From a virus (lineage: Duplodnaviria; Heunggongvirae; Uroviricota; Caudoviricetes), in the IMG/VR virus record IMGVR_UViG_2541047862_000007: DNA of 19,570 nt. The stretch is one strand, 5' to 3'. Every line of letters starts with the position of its first letter. Position 1 is the first letter of the stretch. The notes under the pieces were generated by a model. The model saw only the letters and a list, made by a program, of their open reading frames with translations, made no database searches and had not been told where the DNA came from. Shown here piece by piece: positions 1-7,135 of the stretch. Position numbers and translations under genes: made by a program.

Positions 1-1197
1 TTATGACGCCTGCGGGGTATAAAAAGTCCCGTCGCGCATCATGGCGAACAGAACGTCGCAGCGTCGTCTCGCCAGGGCGATAAGCGCCTGATTGTGTCGT
101 TTTCCCTGACTCATTTTGCGGGTGTAGTAAGCCCTGGAGAGCGGATCCCTGAGCGCGGCGAAGGCCGACAGGAACAACGCCCGTTTGAGAGCTTTATTAC
201 CCCGTCGCGAGGGATGCTCACCGCGTATTGACGAGCCGGATCGCCGAGTTACCGGCGCAAGGCCAGCATAAGCAGCGAGATGTGCGGCAGAGGCGAAGGC
301 GCGGCAGGCGACCTCGGTGAGGAGTCTGGCTGCGGTCCTGACACCGACTCCGGGCATACTGGTCAGGACCGGGTAAAGAGGGTGAGCAAGAACTCGCTGT
401 TCTACCGCAAGCGCCACCTCGTCTCTTTGCTTACGCAGCGTGATGAGCTGGAGTGCCAGACGTGGCAGTACTACGGCAGCGGCATTCGTGCCGGGAACGA
501 CGACGGTTTGTTCGGCCAGTGCCTGAGCTATGTCTGCTGCAAGGCGTTTACCCAGACGAGGCGCAAGTTTGCAGAGCTGGGCTGCCAGCTTCTTCTCACC
601 CAGCGAAGCGAGTTTTTCTGGTGAGGGATATCGCTGGAGAAGATCGAGTACCGCCGGGTGATCAAGTCTCGGACCGAGAACGCGCTCCAGTGCCGGATGT
701 ATCTGGGTCAGAAGGCCGCGGATACGGTTGCTGGCCTGCGTTGTCTGTGCGGCAAGATCATCATCGAAGCCGCAGAGCATGGAGAGTTCGGCGATTTGCT
801 CGTCAGCCAGTTTCAGCGTGCGTAGCGCGTGAGGCAGGGTACGGGCAGCTTCGGCAATGATGGCAGCGTCACGAGCATCAGTTTTAGCTTCACCGGCGTG
901 TAAGTCGGCTATGCGGCGCATGGCCAGTCCAGGGAGGTATCCGACAAGGACTCCTTCTGAGCGGGCAACGGCGACAGGTAACGCACCGATGGTAGCTGGC
1001 TGATCAACAACCAGCAGTATCTGACCATGTTGTTTCAGGTCAGATATTAGCGACCTGAGTTTGTTTTCGTCGTTGGGTAATGCTTTATCGAACAGGCGTT
1101 TACCTGAACGATTAATGGCTACAGCGTGATGCGTATCTTTACCGACATCAACGCCGATAAAGACCTGGACGGATTCGTAATCGCTGGATTCGGTCAT
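1..1197 (-). CDS. IS110-family transposase (DEDD/RuvC-like N-terminal domain plus C-terminal Tnp domain), 398 aa
   Basis: Full-length ORF; N-terminal FIGVDVGK motif and C-terminal SGSSIRG...RRGNKALKRAL segment typical of IS110-family transposases; GC-rich relative to neighbouring island DNA. Confidence 0.88.
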   Translation of the reverse strand: MTESSDYESVQVFIGVDVGKDTHHAVAINRSGKRLFDKALPNDENKLRSLISDLKQHGQILLVVDQPATIGALPVAVARSEGVLVGYLPGLAMRRIADLHAGEAKTDARDAAIIAEAARTLPHALRTLKLADEQIAELSMLCGFDDDLAAQTTQASNRIRGLLTQIHPALERVLGPRLDHPAVLDLLQRYPSPEKLASLGEKKLAAQLCKLAPRLGKRLAADIAQALAEQTVVVPGTNAAAVVLPRLALQLITLRKQRDEVALAVEQRVLAHPLYPVLTSMPGVGVRTAARLLTEVACRAFASAAHLAAYAGLAPVTRRSGSSIRGEHPSRRGNKALKRALFLSAFAALRDPLSRAYYTRKMSQGKRHNQALIALARRRCDVLFAMMRDGTFYTPQAS

Positions 1198-1500
1198 TCT
1201 GTCTCCCTTGTATATGGGTTAACCAGATAACCACGGGGAGCAGGTACCGGCATCCACGTTACAGACGGTCCCGGCAAAAGTGCCTGACCTGACCCCTATT
1301 AGCGGTTACCAGCGCCCCACCAGACCCGGTGACATCACCCCCCGGATCATGGACGACTGGGGGCAGTAATCATGCCGGGTCTGGCTGGCTAACACCCCAT
1401 TATAAGGGGTACGAATAAAGTAACGGGGGTAGCGGCATATATCGCGCATATCCACGCCGTTAATCCCGATACCGTCACGGCGCATTGAGATCCACCAGAA
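1..1500 (-). mobile_element. IS110-family insertion sequence, partial (transposase CDS plus its 5' non-coding end; other terminus outside window)
   Basis: Transposase CDS followed upstream by about 300 nt of GC-rich non-coding DNA that gives way abruptly to AT-rich DNA near 1500; exact terminus cannot be set without the other end. Confidence 0.5.
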
Positions 1501-2004: not shown

Positions 2005-2319
2005 TCACGATAGTTCCGTTTTGTTGAATTCAATTATATCAAGGTCAGAACTTTCGTAATCCTTACCGAATAAAGCAAAACATATCGCGTCAAGTTCTCT
2101 CTTATGTTTGGACGCCCGATCATAATTACCACCCCAACAGCAAATGAATCCACCAAGTACTGCTGATTCAAAAAGTAATGATGCTGCATCAATATGTCTG
2201 AACCAGGAGTCTATAAGTAAAGCAGAGAGTGATATTAATGTTCCCCACCCGCCAATCCTTCTCCATTTCTCAGCTTCATATTTAAGAGAAGCAATATATT
2301 CAATTTTATCTCTCGTCAT
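2005..2319 (-). CDS. Small membrane protein, 104 aa, two predicted transmembrane helices; function unknown
   Basis: Start codon overlaps the stop of the upstream large gene (ATGA); hydrophobic segments GGWGTLISLSALLI and AVLGGFICCWGG; followed by a terminator. Confidence 0.6.
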   Translation of the reverse strand: MTRDKIEYIASLKYEAEKWRRIGGWGTLISLSALLIDSWFRHIDAASLLFESAVLGGFICCWGGNYDRASKHKRELDAICFALFGKDYESSDLDIIEFNKTELS

Positions 2320-5075
2320 CAGTTCCCCACCGCCTTTCCAAAATCCGGTGCTCTACGTGGCGCAATAGCACCCGGTTCCCACCAACTCGTTATGTCGAAC
2401 TCCCGTTGCGAGCGGTCCCTTACTCGATCATTGTAACCAGGGTTTGCCATCTCCTGAAGTTGTTGCAATATCAGGTGATTGGTTATCGCTTTCGCATACC
2501 ACAGGTTTGCGAATGGGGTGATCATGCGGGCTGTTTTCAGTGCATCGGCACCGAATGATGTTTCTTCACCCTGTAGAGCCTTCTGTGGGTTAGTAATCAG
2601 TAATTTTGTTAACTGCTCTGCAAAGCTCAACACAGGGCCCCCCATAGTGGCACCGATGCTGGAGCCATATTGCGTATGGTCCTGGAAAATAAAATCACCG
2701 TAGATACCGAACGAACCACCTTTCAGTAAAGCCTGAACCCATGTGGTTGGTTTTGTCATATCCAGCGGATCATTACCATTTAACAAACTGTTCATCTGGA
2801 TCGCAAACATACCAGCAAGAGTTGTTCCCCCGATATATGAGGCCAGAAATTTAATGGCCGGAACGGTGTCCAAATCCCGTGTTCTGTTAACAAGTTGCCG
2901 AAATCCAGCAAATGGGGTTGTTTTGAAGAGCATGAAGCTCTTCATTAACTCGCCAGCATCATCACGGGCATATGTATCAATACCCGTAGCGGTGGTCACA
3001 GCATTGGTCATCTCACCGTGCGTAATTCCCAGCAATTTCTGGGCTGCTTCAGCGCGTGCATTACGAATCATGCGCGTGATGGTCTGCTCAGCCTCAGCGT
3101 CGAATGCTTCTTTCATCCGTTTCAGGCGTTCTGGAGGGAGATCTCCAAGGGCTGCCAGTGCCTTTTCACTCCCGGCACGAATCCGGGTAATACGGTCTGC
3201 CATAATGTCGGCTATTACGTTATCGGGCACAGCGTAAATCGCGTCTGGCGTCATCCCCATATGCCCGGCAGTAGTCATCGGCCTGAGTTCTGCCGCTGCC
3301 ATGATGGCCCAGTCCTCATTGCTCCATCCCTTGTTAGCCAGAATGGTTTTATCGGTTCCTTTCATATCGTCCAGCGTCTTAAATTTTCTGGTCAGCTCGC
3401 CAATGTTTTTGTACATCAGGAGACCAAACGACGCTTTGTTTGCGCGGTCCATAGCGATCAGCCCGGACCACTTCAGTGTCTTCTCTGCGAACCAGCCAGT
3501 TATGCCGCGAGACAAGTCAAACCCGCCCATTTTCGAAACCACAGCAGCATGTGAATCCACCAGCAGACCGAGTTCAGCATTCGCCTTTTTGGCATCTCCA
3601 CTAAACAGGTTTTTGATAGTGTTAACGGAAAGCCGCATTCCACCACGGGTAAAGCCCAGCGCCTGCGCATTTGCCCGCATAATTGCCTGGTCGCTGGTTG
3701 CTGTCAGTACGCTGGTGCCAAGCATGGCGCTGGTCATCAGGTTACGCAGACCACCAACTGCTGAAGAGAACACACTCGATGAAGCGACACCATTTAGGCC
3801 AGCCATTGAGTTGAACATACGGGCAACTAATTTGGCCTCATCCTCCATTTCTTTTTTGCGTTTCCCGCCTGTTACTGCGCGCTTATAGATGCGATCCAGT
3901 ACCAGGGAAAAGTTTCTTTCGGCGTCCGGACCAAAGGCTTTAACGACGCCCAAATCCCTGGATGATGATTGCAGGTGCGACATCATCACCCCCACCAGCG
4001 GCTGCTGAGTGTATCGCTCCATATAGGCGAAGTGTGACTGCGCATCCTTGAACGCCATCACCCTGTGCTGAGAACCACGGCTCTTTATTCCTCCGGCTCC
4101 CATAAATGTACCAGGCTCAATTTTGTTTGCCCCATCAGTGGCCTTCGTTTCAAAGATCGCTTCCAGTGCCTGACGGTACTCGACGTCATTCATAATGCTG
4201 CCGTCAGGATTAACGTAATTGCTGCGATCCTGCGTGTTGTAAGCGTCATCAACCCATTTCTGGCGGGCAAACTCAATCGGTGGCTGGCGACCTGAAAGAC
4301 GTGCTGTAGCTTGCTCTGCCACTGGTAACGATGCCAGCCATTCTTCGCGCCCGGCATTGCGAATAAGGTCAGCATCATCCACATATGGCGTATGCCAGTC
4401 TTCTCGCAGGCCTATGTCAAAGCCATTGTCGTTCATCTCATGACGAACACGGCCTGTTACATCCTTCCAAATCTGTGCAATTTTCTTCGCCAGGGGATTC
4501 CCGGTATCTTCGCCATATATTTCTTTCAGGATCTGGAGTTGTGCAGACTTTGCCGCCTGCCTGTCGAATACACTCCGAAACCGCTGCTCTCCAAGCGCCC
4601 TGCTCTGCTCGAAGAATTTGCGGACGTCATCACCTGCTTTTAGAAGTTCAGCACTGAGCTGACGGGACCAGTCCTGATATGCCCCAATTGCAAGCTCTTC
4701 AGCAGAAGTAACGGAGATATCAGCTTTGTCTCTCGATCGTCGGCCAGCAAAAATAAACTGCTGCAAATTAACAGGTGTCTGCTGATCAGGCGGGATGTTA
4801 GCATCGAGAGTGTCAGTAATTTTACTGATGGCGATCGCATTCTGGGCAACACGCTGTCTTTTCTTGTACACATCATGAACCACACGCTGGCGAACCAGTT
4901 CTGCAGCATCCATGTATGTTTGAGCATCAGGAATACCACTTTTGCCTTCCATTGCATTCTTTCTGTGCACTTGCCGCACAGCTTCTTTGATACGATCTTC
5001 GATATTTTTCAGCTCATCAGCCTTTGGCTGGCGACCAAGTGTCTGCGCAATAGCTTCAACACATGCCTGTTTCAT
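2319..5075 (-). CDS. Large hypothetical protein (about 918 aa from the ATG at 5075; 925 aa if the alternative start at 5096 is used); Ala/Gly/Ser-rich, no signal peptide, no P-loop
   Basis: Long uninterrupted ORF; ATG at 5075 has a GAGGAA Shine-Dalgarno 7 nt upstream and overlaps the upstream stop as TAATG; stop overlaps the start of the downstream membrane-protein gene. Confidence 0.85.
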   Translation of the reverse strand: MKQACVEAIAQTLGRQPKADELKNIEDRIKEAVRQVHRKNAMEGKSGIPDAQTYMDAAELVRQRVVHDVYKKRQRVAQNAIAISKITDTLDANIPPDQQTPVNLQQFIFAGRRSRDKADISVTSAEELAIGAYQDWSRQLSAELLKAGDDVRKFFEQSRALGEQRFRSVFDRQAAKSAQLQILKEIYGEDTGNPLAKKIAQIWKDVTGRVRHEMNDNGFDIGLREDWHTPYVDDADLIRNAGREEWLASLPVAEQATARLSGRQPPIEFARQKWVDDAYNTQDRSNYVNPDGSIMNDVEYRQALEAIFETKATDGANKIEPGTFMGAGGIKSRGSQHRVMAFKDAQSHFAYMERYTQQPLVGVMMSHLQSSSRDLGVVKAFGPDAERNFSLVLDRIYKRAVTGGKRKKEMEDEAKLVARMFNSMAGLNGVASSSVFSSAVGGLRNLMTSAMLGTSVLTATSDQAIMRANAQALGFTRGGMRLSVNTIKNLFSGDAKKANAELGLLVDSHAAVVSKMGGFDLSRGITGWFAEKTLKWSGLIAMDRANKASFGLLMYKNIGELTRKFKTLDDMKGTDKTILANKGWSNEDWAIMAAAELRPMTTAGHMGMTPDAIYAVPDNVIADIMADRITRIRAGSEKALAALGDLPPERLKRMKEAFDAEAEQTITRMIRNARAEAAQKLLGITHGEMTNAVTTATGIDTYARDDAGELMKSFMLFKTTPFAGFRQLVNRTRDLDTVPAIKFLASYIGGTTLAGMFAIQMNSLLNGNDPLDMTKPTTWVQALLKGGSFGIYGDFIFQDHTQYGSSIGATMGGPVLSFAEQLTKLLITNPQKALQGEETSFGADALKTARMITPFANLWYAKAITNHLILQQLQEMANPGYNDRVRDRSQREFDITSWWEPGAIAPRRAPDFGKAVGN

Positions 5076-7135
5076 TATGGGTTCCTCAAGAAGCACGCTG
5101 CCGCTACAGAATAAACCTTCGATTCGTTCTGGACTGTCTTAATCTGTTCATCCAACTCAGCCAGGAGATCAGAAAGTTTTGTCGGGTTTCCGGTTTCCGG
5201 GTGAGCTATAGTCAGCTCAGGATTGGCAACAGCCATGTCCCTAGCAGCCATAAGGTCATAGCTGTTGGATGAGAGAACCTGCCCTGTATCTGGATCAACG
5301 CTGACGTCCCCTCTGTGTTCACCAGCCGATGAGAAAGCACTTTCAGCACGAGGGACAGGCGATTCACTAATTGGCTCTGATGATGTTTCATATCTGACAC
5401 CATTTTCTTCAAAAACCTTTTGTATTTCATGGTATTGCTCTTGGTAAGTATCAGATATATCTGATCGCAATGGACCATCAAGCCCTCGCGCCATCCCCCC
5501 AACATTTACAGGCTGACCATCATTAAGTTGCCTGTATGCTTCATCCATGGCGTCAACATGGCTGTTGATGCTCTCATTGCTGGTGTGAAGCACTGGTGAC
5601 GATTCAATATCGTAATGAAGCCCCTCATTCAAAATGTGGGCTGCATCAATATCGCTTGGTTTTATTCTTTCCCTCGCCCGGATACCAAAAACTTTTTCTA
5701 CTGCGGCTTCCAGTTTCATATTGCGAAGACGCATACTTACGAGTAACCGTAACTGCTCAGGTGTAACGGTTCCAACCTGAATACCACTGTATCTGAATAT
5801 ATAGGCTTTAAAACCTGAAATAATTTTTTCCCATGATGAAACGCTTGTCTTTAGAGATGGATTTACTGCATGTGCGGCAACTTCTTCAGCGTACAACCAC
5901 TCAGGATATGTTTCAGGGTACTCACCCCTTTTCTTATATTCATAATATTGTGACATCCCATATGCAAATTCAGGATAGTCAGAATGCTTGTTTGCAGATT
6001 TAAGTACAGCATTAGCTAGCTTTCTGGCCTTCCAGTCAGGGTAATGGCGCTGCTCAAGATGAAGCGCCTCGTGATGAAGGGTTTCTAACAGTTCTTCATG
6101 GTCTTTTAATCCATTAATATTTATTCTTATTATTGGTTCTTTTCCAGAAGCTACTGTCACATGACCTTTATTCAGAAGTATTTCTCCATCACTATTTTTT
6201 ATTGCTGGTTCATTAATAAGTTCTATTACTCCTGAATCAGATAAATCACGAACCATTGACTCAATGTTACCATCAGGAGATTGCTGATAATGTTCACCAA
6301 AAGTTGATTTTATTTCTTCTGCAGAAATGTTCGACTCTGTACCATCATGGTTATTATGGGTAGTCAGGTGATGAACGCCACCAAAGACCCCGCCTAAAAC
6401 GGCATCGACTAACATCGCCTGACCGTCAAATACCCGGTACTGTTTTGCCATCTCCGTGTAGCCTTTTTCCTCCAGTGTTGCGCCGACAGAGTAACGGTTC
6501 AGTCCACCGAATCCGGTGTTGATTGCCACACCTGAGGCAATGCGCGTTGCCAGTGTGGTGCCGACGGCAGCGGGTAAGGCCATACCCACAGCATTGAAAA
6601 GGCTTTGCTGCGTTGCCAGGTTACGCGCCGTAGCCTCGTCTACTCCCTTCCCTTTAAAATCCTGATAGGACTGCTCATACGTAGAACTGAAAGCTGTAGC
6701 AGCGCCGATGAGGGGACCGCCAAACATAGTTGTTCCGATTGCAGGAACAAATTTACCAAGCTCATTTAATACCTCAGCCGCCATTCCCTGACTGCCTGCA
6801 TCAGGCTTCACATAGCTGCGGGCATCCTGTAACTGTTTTCCGATCGTGTCGTATGTATCATTCAGTGTTTTGTCAGCATCAGGGAACATCTCCCGAAAAA
6901 TATTAACAGTCGGTGCCACGTCTGCGGTAAATGCCGGATCGCTAATCAGGCGCTTGCTGAATCCGACGGCAGACTGCGCGAGACCGAGAGTCCCCTCCGC
7001 CACGCCGCTCAAAAGTGCAGTACCTGAACCCTGGAAGGGAGTCGGATCGTAGTCTTCTGGCCTTGCTGGGTTGGCAACTGTTTTGTCGTCAATCCATGCC
7101 TGACCTTCTGGAGCCAAAGAAAAAACATCAGACAT
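5075..7135 (-). CDS. Large hypothetical protein, 686 aa, glycine-zipper-like N-terminal region and a central HEALH (HExxH) motif; candidate zinc metallopeptidase-like domain
   Basis: Long ORF with ATGA overlap to the upstream gene; LHHEALHLEQRHY motif encoded near 6059-6073; central segment markedly more AT-rich than the flanks. Confidence 0.85.
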   Translation of the reverse strand: MSDVFSLAPEGQAWIDDKTVANPARPEDYDPTPFQGSGTALLSGVAEGTLGLAQSAVGFSKRLISDPAFTADVAPTVNIFREMFPDADKTLNDTYDTIGKQLQDARSYVKPDAGSQGMAAEVLNELGKFVPAIGTTMFGGPLIGAATAFSSTYEQSYQDFKGKGVDEATARNLATQQSLFNAVGMALPAAVGTTLATRIASGVAINTGFGGLNRYSVGATLEEKGYTEMAKQYRVFDGQAMLVDAVLGGVFGGVHHLTTHNNHDGTESNISAEEIKSTFGEHYQQSPDGNIESMVRDLSDSGVIELINEPAIKNSDGEILLNKGHVTVASGKEPIIRININGLKDHEELLETLHHEALHLEQRHYPDWKARKLANAVLKSANKHSDYPEFAYGMSQYYEYKKRGEYPETYPEWLYAEEVAAHAVNPSLKTSVSSWEKIISGFKAYIFRYSGIQVGTVTPEQLRLLVSMRLRNMKLEAAVEKVFGIRARERIKPSDIDAAHILNEGLHYDIESSPVLHTSNESINSHVDAMDEAYRQLNDGQPVNVGGMARGLDGPLRSDISDTYQEQYHEIQKVFEENGVRYETSSEPISESPVPRAESAFSSAGEHRGDVSVDPDTGQVLSSNSYDLMAARDMAVANPELTIAHPETGNPTKLSDLLAELDEQIKTVQNESKVYSVAAACFLRNP

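What the first reader, a model, noticed from the sequence alone, without database searches (positions are those of the whole stretch)
1198..1500. Structured GC-rich 5' non-coding end of the IS110-family element: candidate bridge RNA locus
Seen: about 300 nt of GC-rich sequence with many short complementary stretches lies directly upstream of the transposase start and ends abruptly at AT-rich DNA near 1500. Established: IS110-group elements such as IS621 encode a structured bridge (guide) RNA in the non-coding end 5' of the recombinase, while the IS1111 group places it 3' of the CDS. Inference: if this element is of the IS110 type, the bridge RNA and the IS terminus are in this interval. I do not recognise the element as IS621 itself.
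Basis: partly seen in the sequence, partly recalled or inferred. Interest (0 to 1): 0.55.

Follow-up and report, generated by a model that had tools for sequence, protein, structure and literature searches.

The report
Bridge RNA gene of insertion sequence ISEc20
The 227 bases in front of this mobile element's recombinase gene encode a conserved folded guide ("bridge") RNA whose loops match the element's own ends and its poly-C insertion sites; this is the expected and already catalogued layout of IS110-type elements, not a new system.

Summary
The element is ISEc20 (IS110 family, IS110 group), 99.9% identical to copies in about 1,700 complete E. coli genomes. Its left end is window 1198-1424 on the minus strand (227 nt). 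It does not reach 1500: 1425-1429 is the C-run at the junction, and 1430-1500 is host DNA that is also present at the uninterrupted site. The right end is only 25 nt and lies off-window.

Sixty distinct orthologous left ends support a 5' stem-loop plus two stem-loops with internal loops. 95% of cells are paired, against 28-50% in slid controls, and 22 pairs show compensatory changes. G-U pairs mark the transposase-sense strand.

The four conserved loop segments have the order and polarity of IS621 bridge RNA guides:
- CCCCC is sense to the left flank.
- GGGGGGUG is antisense to the right junction CA|CCCCCC.
- UAAUAGGGG is sense to the right-end tip.
- GUAACG is antisense to the left-end tip.

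The donor guides covary with the element ends in relatives. Flank specificity (4-5 C on the left, 6 C on the right) equals the guide lengths. A conserved outward TTGAC in the right end could form a promoter on circularisation.

Durrant et al. 2024 already list ISSfl4/ISEc20 as "bridge RNA in LE". Verdict: interpretation supported, boundary corrected, already known. Expression and function are untested.

The parts
1..1197 (-). Complete 398-aa DEDD transposase/recombinase of ISEc20. The window starts exactly at its stop codon, so the 25-nt right end (CATGCTTGACAACTTAATAGGGGCA in other copies) is off-window.
   Evidence: ORF. Pfam PF01548 (6.8e-49) and PF02371 (7.3e-22). 99.9% DNA identity to annotated ISEc20 copies. 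KTD..D and SGSS motifs align with IS621.
1198..1424 (-). Left-end (LE) non-coding region of ISEc20, 227 nt, from the GTTAC terminus to the ATG.
   Evidence: Junction comparison of copies with different flanks. Empty site.
1235..1411 (-). Predicted bridge RNA, about 175 nt: 5' stem-loop, target-binding loop and donor-binding loop. The 5' and 3' ends are inferred, not mapped.
   Evidence: Covariation. Covariance-model hit at 1234-1389, 162.6 bits. About the same length as the 177-nt IS621 RNA.
1393..1411 (-). 5' stem-loop UACCCC-UUAUAAU-GGGGUG.
   Evidence: Stem present in the MFE fold. 3 of its 5 pairs show compensatory changes across orthologs (helix 1). Visible directly in the alignment.
1319..1385 (-). 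Target-binding stem-loop (TBL): outer stem GCCAGACCCGG..UGAU / GUCACCGGGUCUGGU enclosing a large internal loop.
   Evidence: 15 pairs, 98.8% of cells paired, 7 pairs with compensatory changes (helix 2).
1359..1366 (-). Left target guide region CUGCCCCC. The C5 run is sense to the C-run on the left flank.
   Evidence: Near-invariant in 60 orthologs: the five C columns are 95-100% C. Left flank is CCCC at -4..-1 in 55-61 of 61 sites, and C at -5 in 39 of 61.
1336..1343 (-). Right target guide plus handshake-like bases, GGGGGGUG. This is the exact antisense of the right junction CA|CCCCCC.
   Evidence: The six G columns are 98-100% G and the following U and G are conserved. Right flank is C at +1..+6 in 41-46 of 48 sites, with no preference beyond +6. 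Exact match shown. Handshake logic of IS621 from PMC11208158.
1236..1317 (-). Donor-binding stem-loop (DBL): outer stem GGGCGC..GGU..CCG / CGG.ACC.GCUCCC, an internal loop and an inner hairpin.
   Evidence: Outer stem has 12 pairs, 97.4% of cells paired, 8 pairs with compensatory changes. Inner stems are also supported by covariation (helices 4-6).
1293..1301 (-). Left donor guide UAAUAGGGG, sense to the right-end tip TTAATAGGGGCA.
   Evidence: 9-nt exact match, reached in 13 of 5000 shuffles. Position 7 covaries with the RE tip (47 G:G, 12 A:A, 1 mismatch). GAGG in the guide goes with GAGG in the RE in Streptomyces relatives.
1267..1289 (-). Inner hairpin of the DBL, GGUCAGGCA-CUUU-UGCCGGGACC.
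   Evidence: Compensatory changes in helices 5 and 6.
1254..1262 (-). Right donor guide plus following bases, GUAACGUGG. GUAACG is the antisense of C+GTTAC at the LE tip.
   Evidence: Invariant in the 60 orthologs. In more distant relatives, LE tip ATTAC goes with GUAAU and GTTAT with AUAAC, 8 of 8 consistent.
1417..1422 (-). -10-like hexamer TACTTT (TAnnnT). It would face the TTGACA of the right end across the circle junction.
   Evidence: T3, A4 and T8 of the LE are invariant. TTGAC is present in all 42 distinct right ends, 14-15 nt from the tip. Spacer lengths. Promoter function is inferred.
1420..1424 (-). LE terminus GTTAC (right donor half-site).
   Evidence: First bases shared by all copies.
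1425..1429 (-). Five C (ggggg on the plus strand): left target plus core at the insertion junction. They are part of an 8-C run at the uninterrupted site.
   Evidence: Empty site GCCGCTA-CCCCCCCC-TCAACAG in CP122454.
1203..1208 (-). Shine-Dalgarno-like AGGGAG, 5 nt upstream of the transposase ATG.
   Evidence: Read from the sequence.

Best explanation
Window 1198-1424 (minus strand) is the left non-coding end of ISEc20. It encodes, on the transposase-sense strand, a bridge RNA of about 175 nt of the IS621 type: a 5' stem-loop, a target-binding loop and a donor-binding loop.

Proposed mechanism (inferred by analogy with IS621 and ISEc21):
1. The element excises as a circle.
2. Joining the ends places the conserved TTGACA of the 25-nt right end 17-19 bp upstream of TACTTT in the left end. 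This makes a promoter that drives the RNA and probably the downstream transposase.
3. The recombinase binds the RNA.
4. The donor loop pairs with the joined ends. [quoted passage not shown]
5. The target loop pairs with a run of 8-10 C. [quoted passage not shown]
6. Strand exchange at a core inside the C-run inserts the element in one orientation.

Shown here: the element boundaries, the RNA structure and its strand, guide/end complementarity with covariation, and the agreement between flank specificity and guide length. Inferred: transcription, the promoter, protein binding, and the exact core.
For: Identity and layout:
- ISEc20 at 99.9% identity.
- DEDD and Tnp domains.
- LE 227 nt, RE 25 nt.

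Structure:
- 41 proposed pairs on a MAFFT alignment of 60 distinct LEs.
- 95.4% of cells paired, against 28-50% when partners are slid.
- 22 pairs and 178 cells with compensatory changes, against 5-11 pairs and 8-37 cells when slid.
- 0 of 500 shuffles reach the observed values.

Strand: 369 G-U cells against 25 A-C cells, giving 95.4% paired on the sense strand and 81.4% on the antisense strand.

Guides:
- All four segments sit in internal loops, in the IS621 order LTG, RTG, LDG, RDG and with the IS621 polarity.
- The left donor guide matches the RE tip over 9 nt (13 of 5000 shuffles).
- It covaries with the tip: G/A at one position in 59 of 60 loci, in two unrelated lineages, and GAGG/GAGG in Streptomyces.
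- The right donor guide covaries with the LE tip at two positions in relatives of 50-70% identity.
- Flanks are CCCC(C) on the left and exactly CCCCCC on the right, matching the C5 and G6 guide runs.
- GGGGGGUG is the antisense of CA|CCCCCC, as expected for a right target guide plus handshake bases.

Held-out test: a covariance model of TBL plus DBL gives one strong hit in the window (1234-1389, minus strand, 162.6 bits). It also hits the LE of all 8 distant relatives not used to build it (60-114 bits). There is no hit in the empty-site locus.

Promoter:
- TTGAC in all 42 distinct right ends.
- Spacer 17-18 bp with one C at the junction, 18-19 bp with two.
- No sigma-70-like promoter on the minus strand of the integrated LE.

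Literature: ISSfl4/ISEc20 is listed as 'LE, IS110' in PMC11208160, Supplementary Table 5.
Against: - There are no expression, binding or transposition data for this element, so RNA ends and function are inferred.
- Rfam 15 gave no bridge RNA match.
- Every relative found, down to 50% identity, targets the same poly-C motif. Guide/target covariation, the strongest test of programmability, could therefore not be done. The target guides are close to invariant, which does not by itself argue for pairing with DNA.
- Because the target is a homopolymer, C5 and G6 are complementary to each other. Both the MFE and RNAalifold structures pair them. Their conservation could partly reflect an intramolecular helix.
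- In ISEc20 itself the left donor guide does not extend into the CA and core (UAAUAGGGGUCA against TAATAGGGGCAC).
- The core and the circle junction are unresolved.
- With a 4-C junction, as seen in tandem arrays, the -35/-10 spacer would be 20 bp in ISEc20 and 21 bp in most relatives, too long for a good sigma-70 promoter.
- The right end of this particular copy is outside the window.
Confidence: 0.85

Rival explanations
1. The structured region is only a cis-acting 5' leader of the transposase mRNA, for example one that controls translation or stability. It has no guide function. The matches to the ends and flanks would be incidental or reflect protein-binding motifs.
For: No terminator-like site lies between the structure and the ATG, so it would be co-transcribed with the transposase. 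The C5 and G6 runs can pair with each other. The target guides never vary, so pairing to DNA is not demonstrated by covariation.
Against: The single-stranded loop segments covary with the element's termini at four positions, in lineages where the stems also change. A leader function does not predict that. Flank specificity has the same length as the loop runs. The architecture and guide order copy the experimentally proven IS621 and ISEc21 RNAs.
Confidence: 0.07
2. The conserved segments act as DNA: sub-terminal transposase-binding sites or recombination sites in the left end. No functional RNA is involved.
For: The motifs shared with the termini (TAATAGGGG, GTAAC) could be read as internal repeats of end sequences, as in elements with multiple transposase-binding sites.
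Against: Helices are maintained by compensatory changes and use many G-U pairs that are A-C on the other strand: 369 against 25 cells, 95.4% against 81.4% paired. That is the signature of a single-stranded RNA of one polarity. No inverted repeat longer than 5 nt exists between the ends.
Confidence: 0.04
3. The element is of the IS1111 type, with its guide RNA downstream of the transposase gene. The upstream region would be unrelated.
For: None found. The 3' side is off-window, so it cannot be read in this copy.
Against: In identical copies the right end is only 25 nt after the stop codon. Contigs that consist of a related element alone have 30-45 nt after the CDS. No long sub-terminal inverted repeats. 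Listed as group IS110, RNA in the LE.
Confidence: 0.01

Closest known systems
IS621 bridge RNA (Durrant et al. 2024, PMC11208160; Hiraizumi et al. 2024, PMC11208158)
   Same: Encoded in the long left end upstream of a DEDD/Tnp recombinase. About 175 nt. [quoted passage not shown] Same order and polarity of LTG, RTG, LDG and RDG. The bases 3' of the RTG are antisense to the last bases of the donor's left half (handshake logic). A -35 box in the short right end faces a -10 in the left end.
   Different: No alignable RNA sequence similarity. The recombinases share 34% identity over the C-terminal domain only, and the protein is 398 aa against about 326 aa. The target is a C homopolymer, so the two target guides are complementary to each other over 5-6 nt instead of 2. 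The core is not CT and its position is unresolved. Nothing has been tested experimentally for ISEc20.
ISEc21 seekRNA (Siddiquee et al. 2024, PMC11187229)
   Same: An IS110-type element of E. coli with an upstream non-coding region that is required, in cis or in trans, for circle formation and insertion. It has a junction promoter and short segments matching both strands of the target.
   Different: A different clade: transposases of 345-385 aa, and a target inside IS3-family transposase genes. ISEc20 belongs to the 395-455 aa subgroup that contains IS110 itself.
IS110 sensu stricto cluster (IS110, ISAar2, ISBma3, ISSer1, ISSgr1, ISSfl4) as clustered in PMC11208160
   Same: ISEc20 is in this protein cluster. 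Relatives annotated as ISBma3-like and ISSgr1-like carry the same RNA and the same poly-C flanks.
   Different: ISEc20/ISSfl4 is the enterobacterial branch. It has small differences in the left donor guide (UAAUAGGGGUCA) and in the length of the 5' stem-loop.
IS1111-group elements (ISEc11, IS4321/IS5075)
   Same: The same recombinase family and the same RNA-guided logic.
   Different: Their RNA is downstream of the gene, they have long sub-terminal inverted repeats, and the guide order is reversed. None of this applies here.

Membership tests
IS110 family | Recombinase with an N-terminal DEDD RuvC-like domain and a C-terminal Tnp domain carrying the catalytic serine | tested here: met
   PF01548 6.8e-49 and PF02371 7.3e-22. 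AKTDARDA and RRSGSS motifs align with the KTDTVDA and ESGSS of IS621.
IS110 group (as opposed to the IS1111 group) | Long left end, short right end | tested here: met
   LE 227 nt in the window. RE 25 nt in 99.9%-identical copies.
IS110 group (as opposed to the IS1111 group) | No 7-17 bp sub-terminal inverted repeats | tested here: met
   The longest inverted repeat between the RE (25 nt) and LE 1-40 is 5 nt.
ISEc20 (ISfinder name as used by NCBI annotation) | Near-identity of the DNA to annotated ISEc20 copies | tested here: met
   99.9% over window 1-1434. Present in 1697 of 5426 complete E. coli genomes.
Bridge RNA (IS621 type) | Conserved secondary structure: a 5' stem-loop and two stem-loops with internal loops, on the recombinase-sense strand | tested here: met
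   95.4% paired, 22 covarying pairs, controls far lower. Strand asymmetry. Held-out covariance-model hits in 8 of 8 relatives.
Bridge RNA (IS621 type) | Donor-binding loop: 5' guide sense to the right-end tip, 3' guide antisense to the left-end tip, covarying with the ends | tested here: met
   UAAUAGGGG matches TAATAGGGG, and GUAACG matches CGTTAC. Covariation at four positions.
Bridge RNA (IS621 type) | Target-binding loop: 5' guide sense to the left target, 3' guide antisense to the right target | tested here: met
   C5 against the left flank CCCC(C). G6 against the right flank CCCCCC, with specificity ending where the guides end.
Bridge RNA (IS621 type) | Target guides covary with target sites across relatives (programmability) | tested here: inconclusive
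   All 88 relatives examined, down to 50% protein identity, use poly-C sites and keep the same guides. There is no variation to test.
Bridge RNA (IS621 type) | Promoter reconstituted across the RE-LE junction of the circle | tested here: inconclusive
   TTGAC is conserved in all 42 distinct right ends and TAnnnT is conserved in the LE. The spacer is 16-21 bp depending on the unknown number of C at the junction. No junction read was found.
Bridge RNA (IS621 type) | A defined 2-nt core shared by donor and target | tested here: inconclusive
   The crossover lies in a C homopolymer. Flank position -1 is always C and -2 is mostly C. Empty-site alleles have 7 or 11 G. Tandem junctions have 3-4 C and junction-like relics have 1 C.
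Bridge RNA (IS621 type) | The RNA is transcribed, binds the recombinase and is required for recombination | not testable with these tools
   No expression or biochemical data are available here. Shown only for IS621 and ISEc21.
Rfam families | Match to a curated covariance model | tested here: not met
   No family matches window 1198-1424 even at E up to 10. None reaches its gathering score there.

The most novel reading that the evidence does not exclude
In this whole clade, from E. coli to Streptomyces, the bridge RNA is fixed on a homopolymeric C8-10 target. As a result its two target guides (C5 and G6) are complementary to each other and are predicted to close the target loop into a helix. 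This self-masked target loop could act as a built-in brake, or could require the recombinase to open it. The choice of hypermutable poly-C/G tracts, with a donor core (possibly AC) that differs from the target core (CC), could explain three things seen here: variable C counts at the junctions, eroded right-end tips, and head-to-tail tandem arrays. That would make this clade a mechanistic variant of bridge recombination rather than a plain copy of IS621.
Probability: 0.25. Interest if true: 0.5.

Novelty: already known. Interest (0 to 1): 0.3.

Why it matters
Bridge RNAs turn IS110 recombinases into programmable DNA-insertion tools. This locus is a clean natural example, in a very common E. coli and Shigella element, from the large-transposase subgroup that contains IS110 itself. 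As far as I could find, that subgroup has no experimentally characterised member.

For annotation, the practical results are:
- The element ends at 1424-1429, not at the GC/AT transition.
- The region should be labelled as a non-coding RNA gene, not as a UTR or as the 59-aa ORF that crosses the boundary.

For biology, the mildly interesting point is the fixed poly-C target with self-complementary target guides. The existence of the RNA in this element was already predicted in the published ISfinder-wide survey.

Tried and rejected
- **Rfam 15**, with permissive E-values on 1-2400 and at gathering scores on the whole window. Nothing in the LE. The only gathering-score hit is int-alpA RNA, far away.
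- **Promoter and terminator scan of the integrated LE.** No minus-strand promoter and no terminator. The TATAAT in the loop of the 5' stem-loop has no -35 partner and is not conserved in orthologs (GCCTC, TAATT and others). I rejected it as the promoter.
- **Core length from empty sites.** The site occupied in CFT073 is a hypervariable poly-G with 7 or 11 G in other strains. No complete E. coli genome has the window's own insertion. Unresolved.
- **Naturally retargeted relatives.** I looked at 80 genome loci and 8 plasmid loci down to 50% identity. All use poly-C.
- **Metagenome scan** for RE-N0-5-LE junctions. The 120 loci returned were all chance matches without TTGAC or LE features.
- **Tandem arrays in E. 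coli** were found. Their 4-C junction need not equal the circle junction.
- **RNAalifold pairing of the guides.** Its pairing of C5 with G6, and of parts of the left donor guide with the right donor guide region, was not adopted. Those columns never show compensatory change.
- **Pair counts on alignment A3** are not used as evidence. That alignment is fitted to the model and includes weak antisense hits.
- **The 59-aa ORF at 1306-1485 (minus strand)** crosses the element/host boundary, so it is a chance ORF.
- **Literature search** for ISEc20 and ISSfl4 found only inventories, no mechanistic work.

Full report
**What is at the coordinates**

Window 1-1197 (minus strand) is a complete 398-aa ORF with the DEDD_Tnp_IS110 and Transposase_20 domains. 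The window begins exactly at its stop codon. The DNA is 99.9% identical to elements annotated as ISEc20, which occur in 1697 of 5426 complete E. coli genomes, with a median of two places per genome. The stretch upstream of the ATG has 0.51-0.64 GC as far as about 1500, and then GC drops to 0.24.

**Where the element ends**

The GC/AT transition is not the terminus.
- Similarity to other ISEc20 copies stops at about 1430.
- Similarity to the uninterrupted locus in four other E. coli strains begins at 1425.
- Nine copies with unrelated flanks all start GTTACTTTATTCG after a run of C.

The left end (LE) is therefore window 1198-1424, 227 nt. Positions 1425-1429 are five C (in the element's orientation) belonging to the junction. 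Positions 1430-1500 are host DNA that folds no better than shuffles (z = +0.12).

The uninterrupted site reads GCCGCTA-CCCCCCCC-TCAACAG.

In identical copies the right end (RE) is only CATGCTTGACAACTTAATAGGGGCA, 25 nt after the stop codon, followed by CCCCCC. It lies outside the window.

A long LE, a short RE and no inverted repeat longer than 5 nt between the ends place the element in the IS110 group, not the IS1111 group.

**Relatives**

One scan of species-representative genomes returned 80 loci encoding transposases of 73-99% identity. They come from Enterobacterales, Burkholderiales, Microbacteriaceae and others. Several are contigs of 1456-1465 bp that consist of the element alone. These begin CCCCGTTAC and end GGG(G/A)CACCCCCC.

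Eight further relatives of 50-70% identity were fetched from plasmids of Arthrobacter, Streptomyces, Rhodococcus and Corynebacterium.

**RNA structure**

A MAFFT alignment of 60 distinct LEs shows blocks of near-invariant sequence separated by segments that change in a paired manner. I tested a 41-pair structure made of:
- a 5' stem-loop;
- a long outer stem enclosing an internal loop and a small hairpin;
- a second outer stem enclosing an internal loop and a hairpin.

| Measure | Proposed structure | 3' partners slid by 1-3 columns |
|---|---|---|
| Cells forming standard pairs | 95.4% | 28-50% |
| Pairs with changes on both sides | 22 | 5-11 |
| Cells with changes on both sides | 178 | 8-37 |

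None of 500 column shuffles reaches the observed values.

The helices use 369 G-U cells but only 25 A-C cells. The structure is 95.4% paired on the transposase-sense strand and 81.4% on the other strand. That identifies the sense strand as the RNA.

The window's own sequence folds into the same helices (MFE -98.3 kcal/mol, z = -2.55).

A covariance model of the two large stem-loops, built from 35 sequences, gave:
- one strong hit in the 19.6-kb window, at 1234-1389 on the minus strand (162.6 bits);
- hits of 60-114 bits just upstream of the transposase gene in all eight distant relatives that were not used to build it;
- no hit in the uninterrupted-site locus.

Rfam 15 has no matching family.

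**Guide-like loops**

The conserved unpaired segments have the order and polarity described for IS621: LTG, RTG, LDG, RDG. In IS621 the left guides are sense to the DNA top strand and the right guides are antisense to it.

Donor loop:
- UAAUAGGGG (window 1293-1301) equals the RE tip TAATAGGGG. The match is 9 nt and is reached in 13 of 5000 shuffles.
- GUAACG (within 1254-1262) is the antisense of C+GTTAC at the LE tip.

These pairings covary with the element ends:
- The seventh base of AUAGGG(G/A) is G with a GGGGCA tip in 47 loci and A with a GGGACA tip in 12 loci, with one exception. The A form occurs in two unrelated lineages, Duganella and Microbacteriaceae.
- Streptomyces relatives with the tip ATAGAGGC carry CAGAGG in the loop.
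- An element starting ATTAC has GUAAU in the loop. Three elements starting GTTAT have AUAAC.

Target loop:
- CUGCCCCC lies at 1359-1366 and GGGGGGUG at 1336-1343.
- Over 61 distinct left flanks, positions -4 to -1 are C in 55-61 sites, and position -5 is C in 39.
- Over 48 distinct right flanks, positions +1 to +6 are C in 41-46 sites. There is no preference beyond +6.
- Flank specificity therefore ends where the C5 and G6 runs end.
- GGGGGGUG is the exact antisense of the right junction CA|CCCCCC. That is what a right target guide followed by IS621-style handshake bases would be.

**Promoter (inferred)**

No sigma-70-like promoter or terminator is found on the minus strand of the integrated LE. 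TTGAC is present in all 42 distinct right ends, 14-15 nt from the tip, although the sequence between varies. LE positions 3-8 keep TAnnnT.

Joining the ends would give a -35/-10 spacer of 17-18 bp with one C at the junction, or 18-19 bp with two. Transcription would then start at about the first base of the 5' stem-loop and give an RNA of about 175 nt if it ends after the donor loop. The IS621 RNA is 177 nt. This step rests on analogy with IS621 and ISEc21.

**What remains open**

*No natural retargeting.* Every relative targets poly-C, so natural retargeting could not be observed. The target guides are essentially invariant.

*The guides can pair with each other.* Because the target is a homopolymer, C5 and G6 are also complementary to each other. 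Thermodynamic predictions pair them.

*The core cannot be placed inside the C-run.*
- Empty alleles of the CFT073 site have 7 or 11 G.
- Head-to-tail ISEc20 arrays in strain SMN197SH3 have RE-CCCC-LE. An Arthrobacter tandem has RE-CCC-LE.
- Three lineages have an RE tip followed by a single C and then GTTAC, where the sequence after that is not LE.
- GUAACGUG is the contiguous antisense of CA-C-GTTAC (94 of 5000 shuffles).

*No junction sequence.* A metagenome scan for junctions returned only chance matches.

*No experimental data.* No expression or biochemical evidence exists for this element. The RE of this copy is outside the window.

**Comparison with the literature and verdict**

Durrant et al. 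2024 (PMC11208160), Supplementary Table 5, lists the cluster ISSfl4/ISEc20 as group IS110 with the bridge RNA detected in the LE. Another supplementary table of the same paper (supplementary file 4) clusters ISEc20 with IS110, ISAar2, ISBma3 and ISSgr1. Siddiquee et al. 2024 describe this subgroup only by its larger transposases of 395-455 aa. Literature searches on ISEc20 and ISSfl4 found inventories only.

The feature is an already predicted instance of a known system.

The detailed anatomy given here appears not to have been described. That covers the coordinates of the loops, the poly-C target, the self-complementary target guides and the donor-guide covariation. It is the only modest addition.

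Noticed in passing
window 2319-9666 (minus strand), with the small ORF at 2005-2319: Three consecutive, overlapping or abutting large ORFs (925, 686 and 843 aa) and a 104-aa ORF have no Pfam and no PADLOC match. They sit as cargo between the ISEc20 insertion and P4-like satellite genes, and homologous copies in other E. coli are annotated only as hypothetical proteins. This could be an uncharacterised defence or other accessory module.
   Followed up: partly
window 11903-19570: P4-like integrative island backbone: a DUF927 primase/helicase-like protein (11903-14029), an AntA-domain protein (16161-16961), int-alpA RNA (Rfam RF02996, 18244-18311, minus strand, 46.9 bits) and a tyrosine integrase (18356-19570). 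The window ends exactly at the integrase start codon and starts exactly at the transposase stop codon.
   Followed up: partly
L009/L010 position 2416, L047 position 2417, L086 position 1905: In three unrelated lineages (E. coli/Shigella, Cupriavidus, Arthrobacter) a right-end tip is followed by a single C and then GTTAC(C/T)(T/A)C. This resembles the element's own left-end tip, but the sequence does not continue as LE. These could be insertions into donor-like half sites or relics of the circle junction.
   Followed up: partly
L214 (NZ_CP024054, 2 copies), L215 (NZ_CP024056, 3 copies), L086 position 323: Head-to-tail tandem arrays of the element. ISEc20 copies in E. coli SMN197SH3 are separated by CCCC (one junction lacks the tip A). 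An Arthrobacter alpinus plasmid has two copies separated by CCC.
   Followed up: partly
L012, L020, L029, L035, L057 (right ends): In 5 of 64 copies the right-end tip is eroded into the C-run (ATAGGGCCCC.., ATAGCCCC.., ATAGGGACCCC..). This looks as if recombination had occurred out of register in the G/C homopolymers. Assembly error is not excluded.
   Followed up: no
L083-L085 (empty alleles of the CFT073 insertion site): The poly-G/C tract used as the target is hypervariable between strains: 7 G plus TGT in some, 11 G in others. ISEc20 thus inserts into tracts of the kind that undergo slippage.
   Followed up: partly
window 1306-1485 (minus strand): A 59-aa ATG ORF spans the element/host boundary. 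It starts in host DNA and ends inside the target-binding stem-loop of the bridge RNA. It is a chance ORF that an annotation pipeline could call. In CFT073 a different 'hypothetical protein' is annotated across the same junction.
   Followed up: yes
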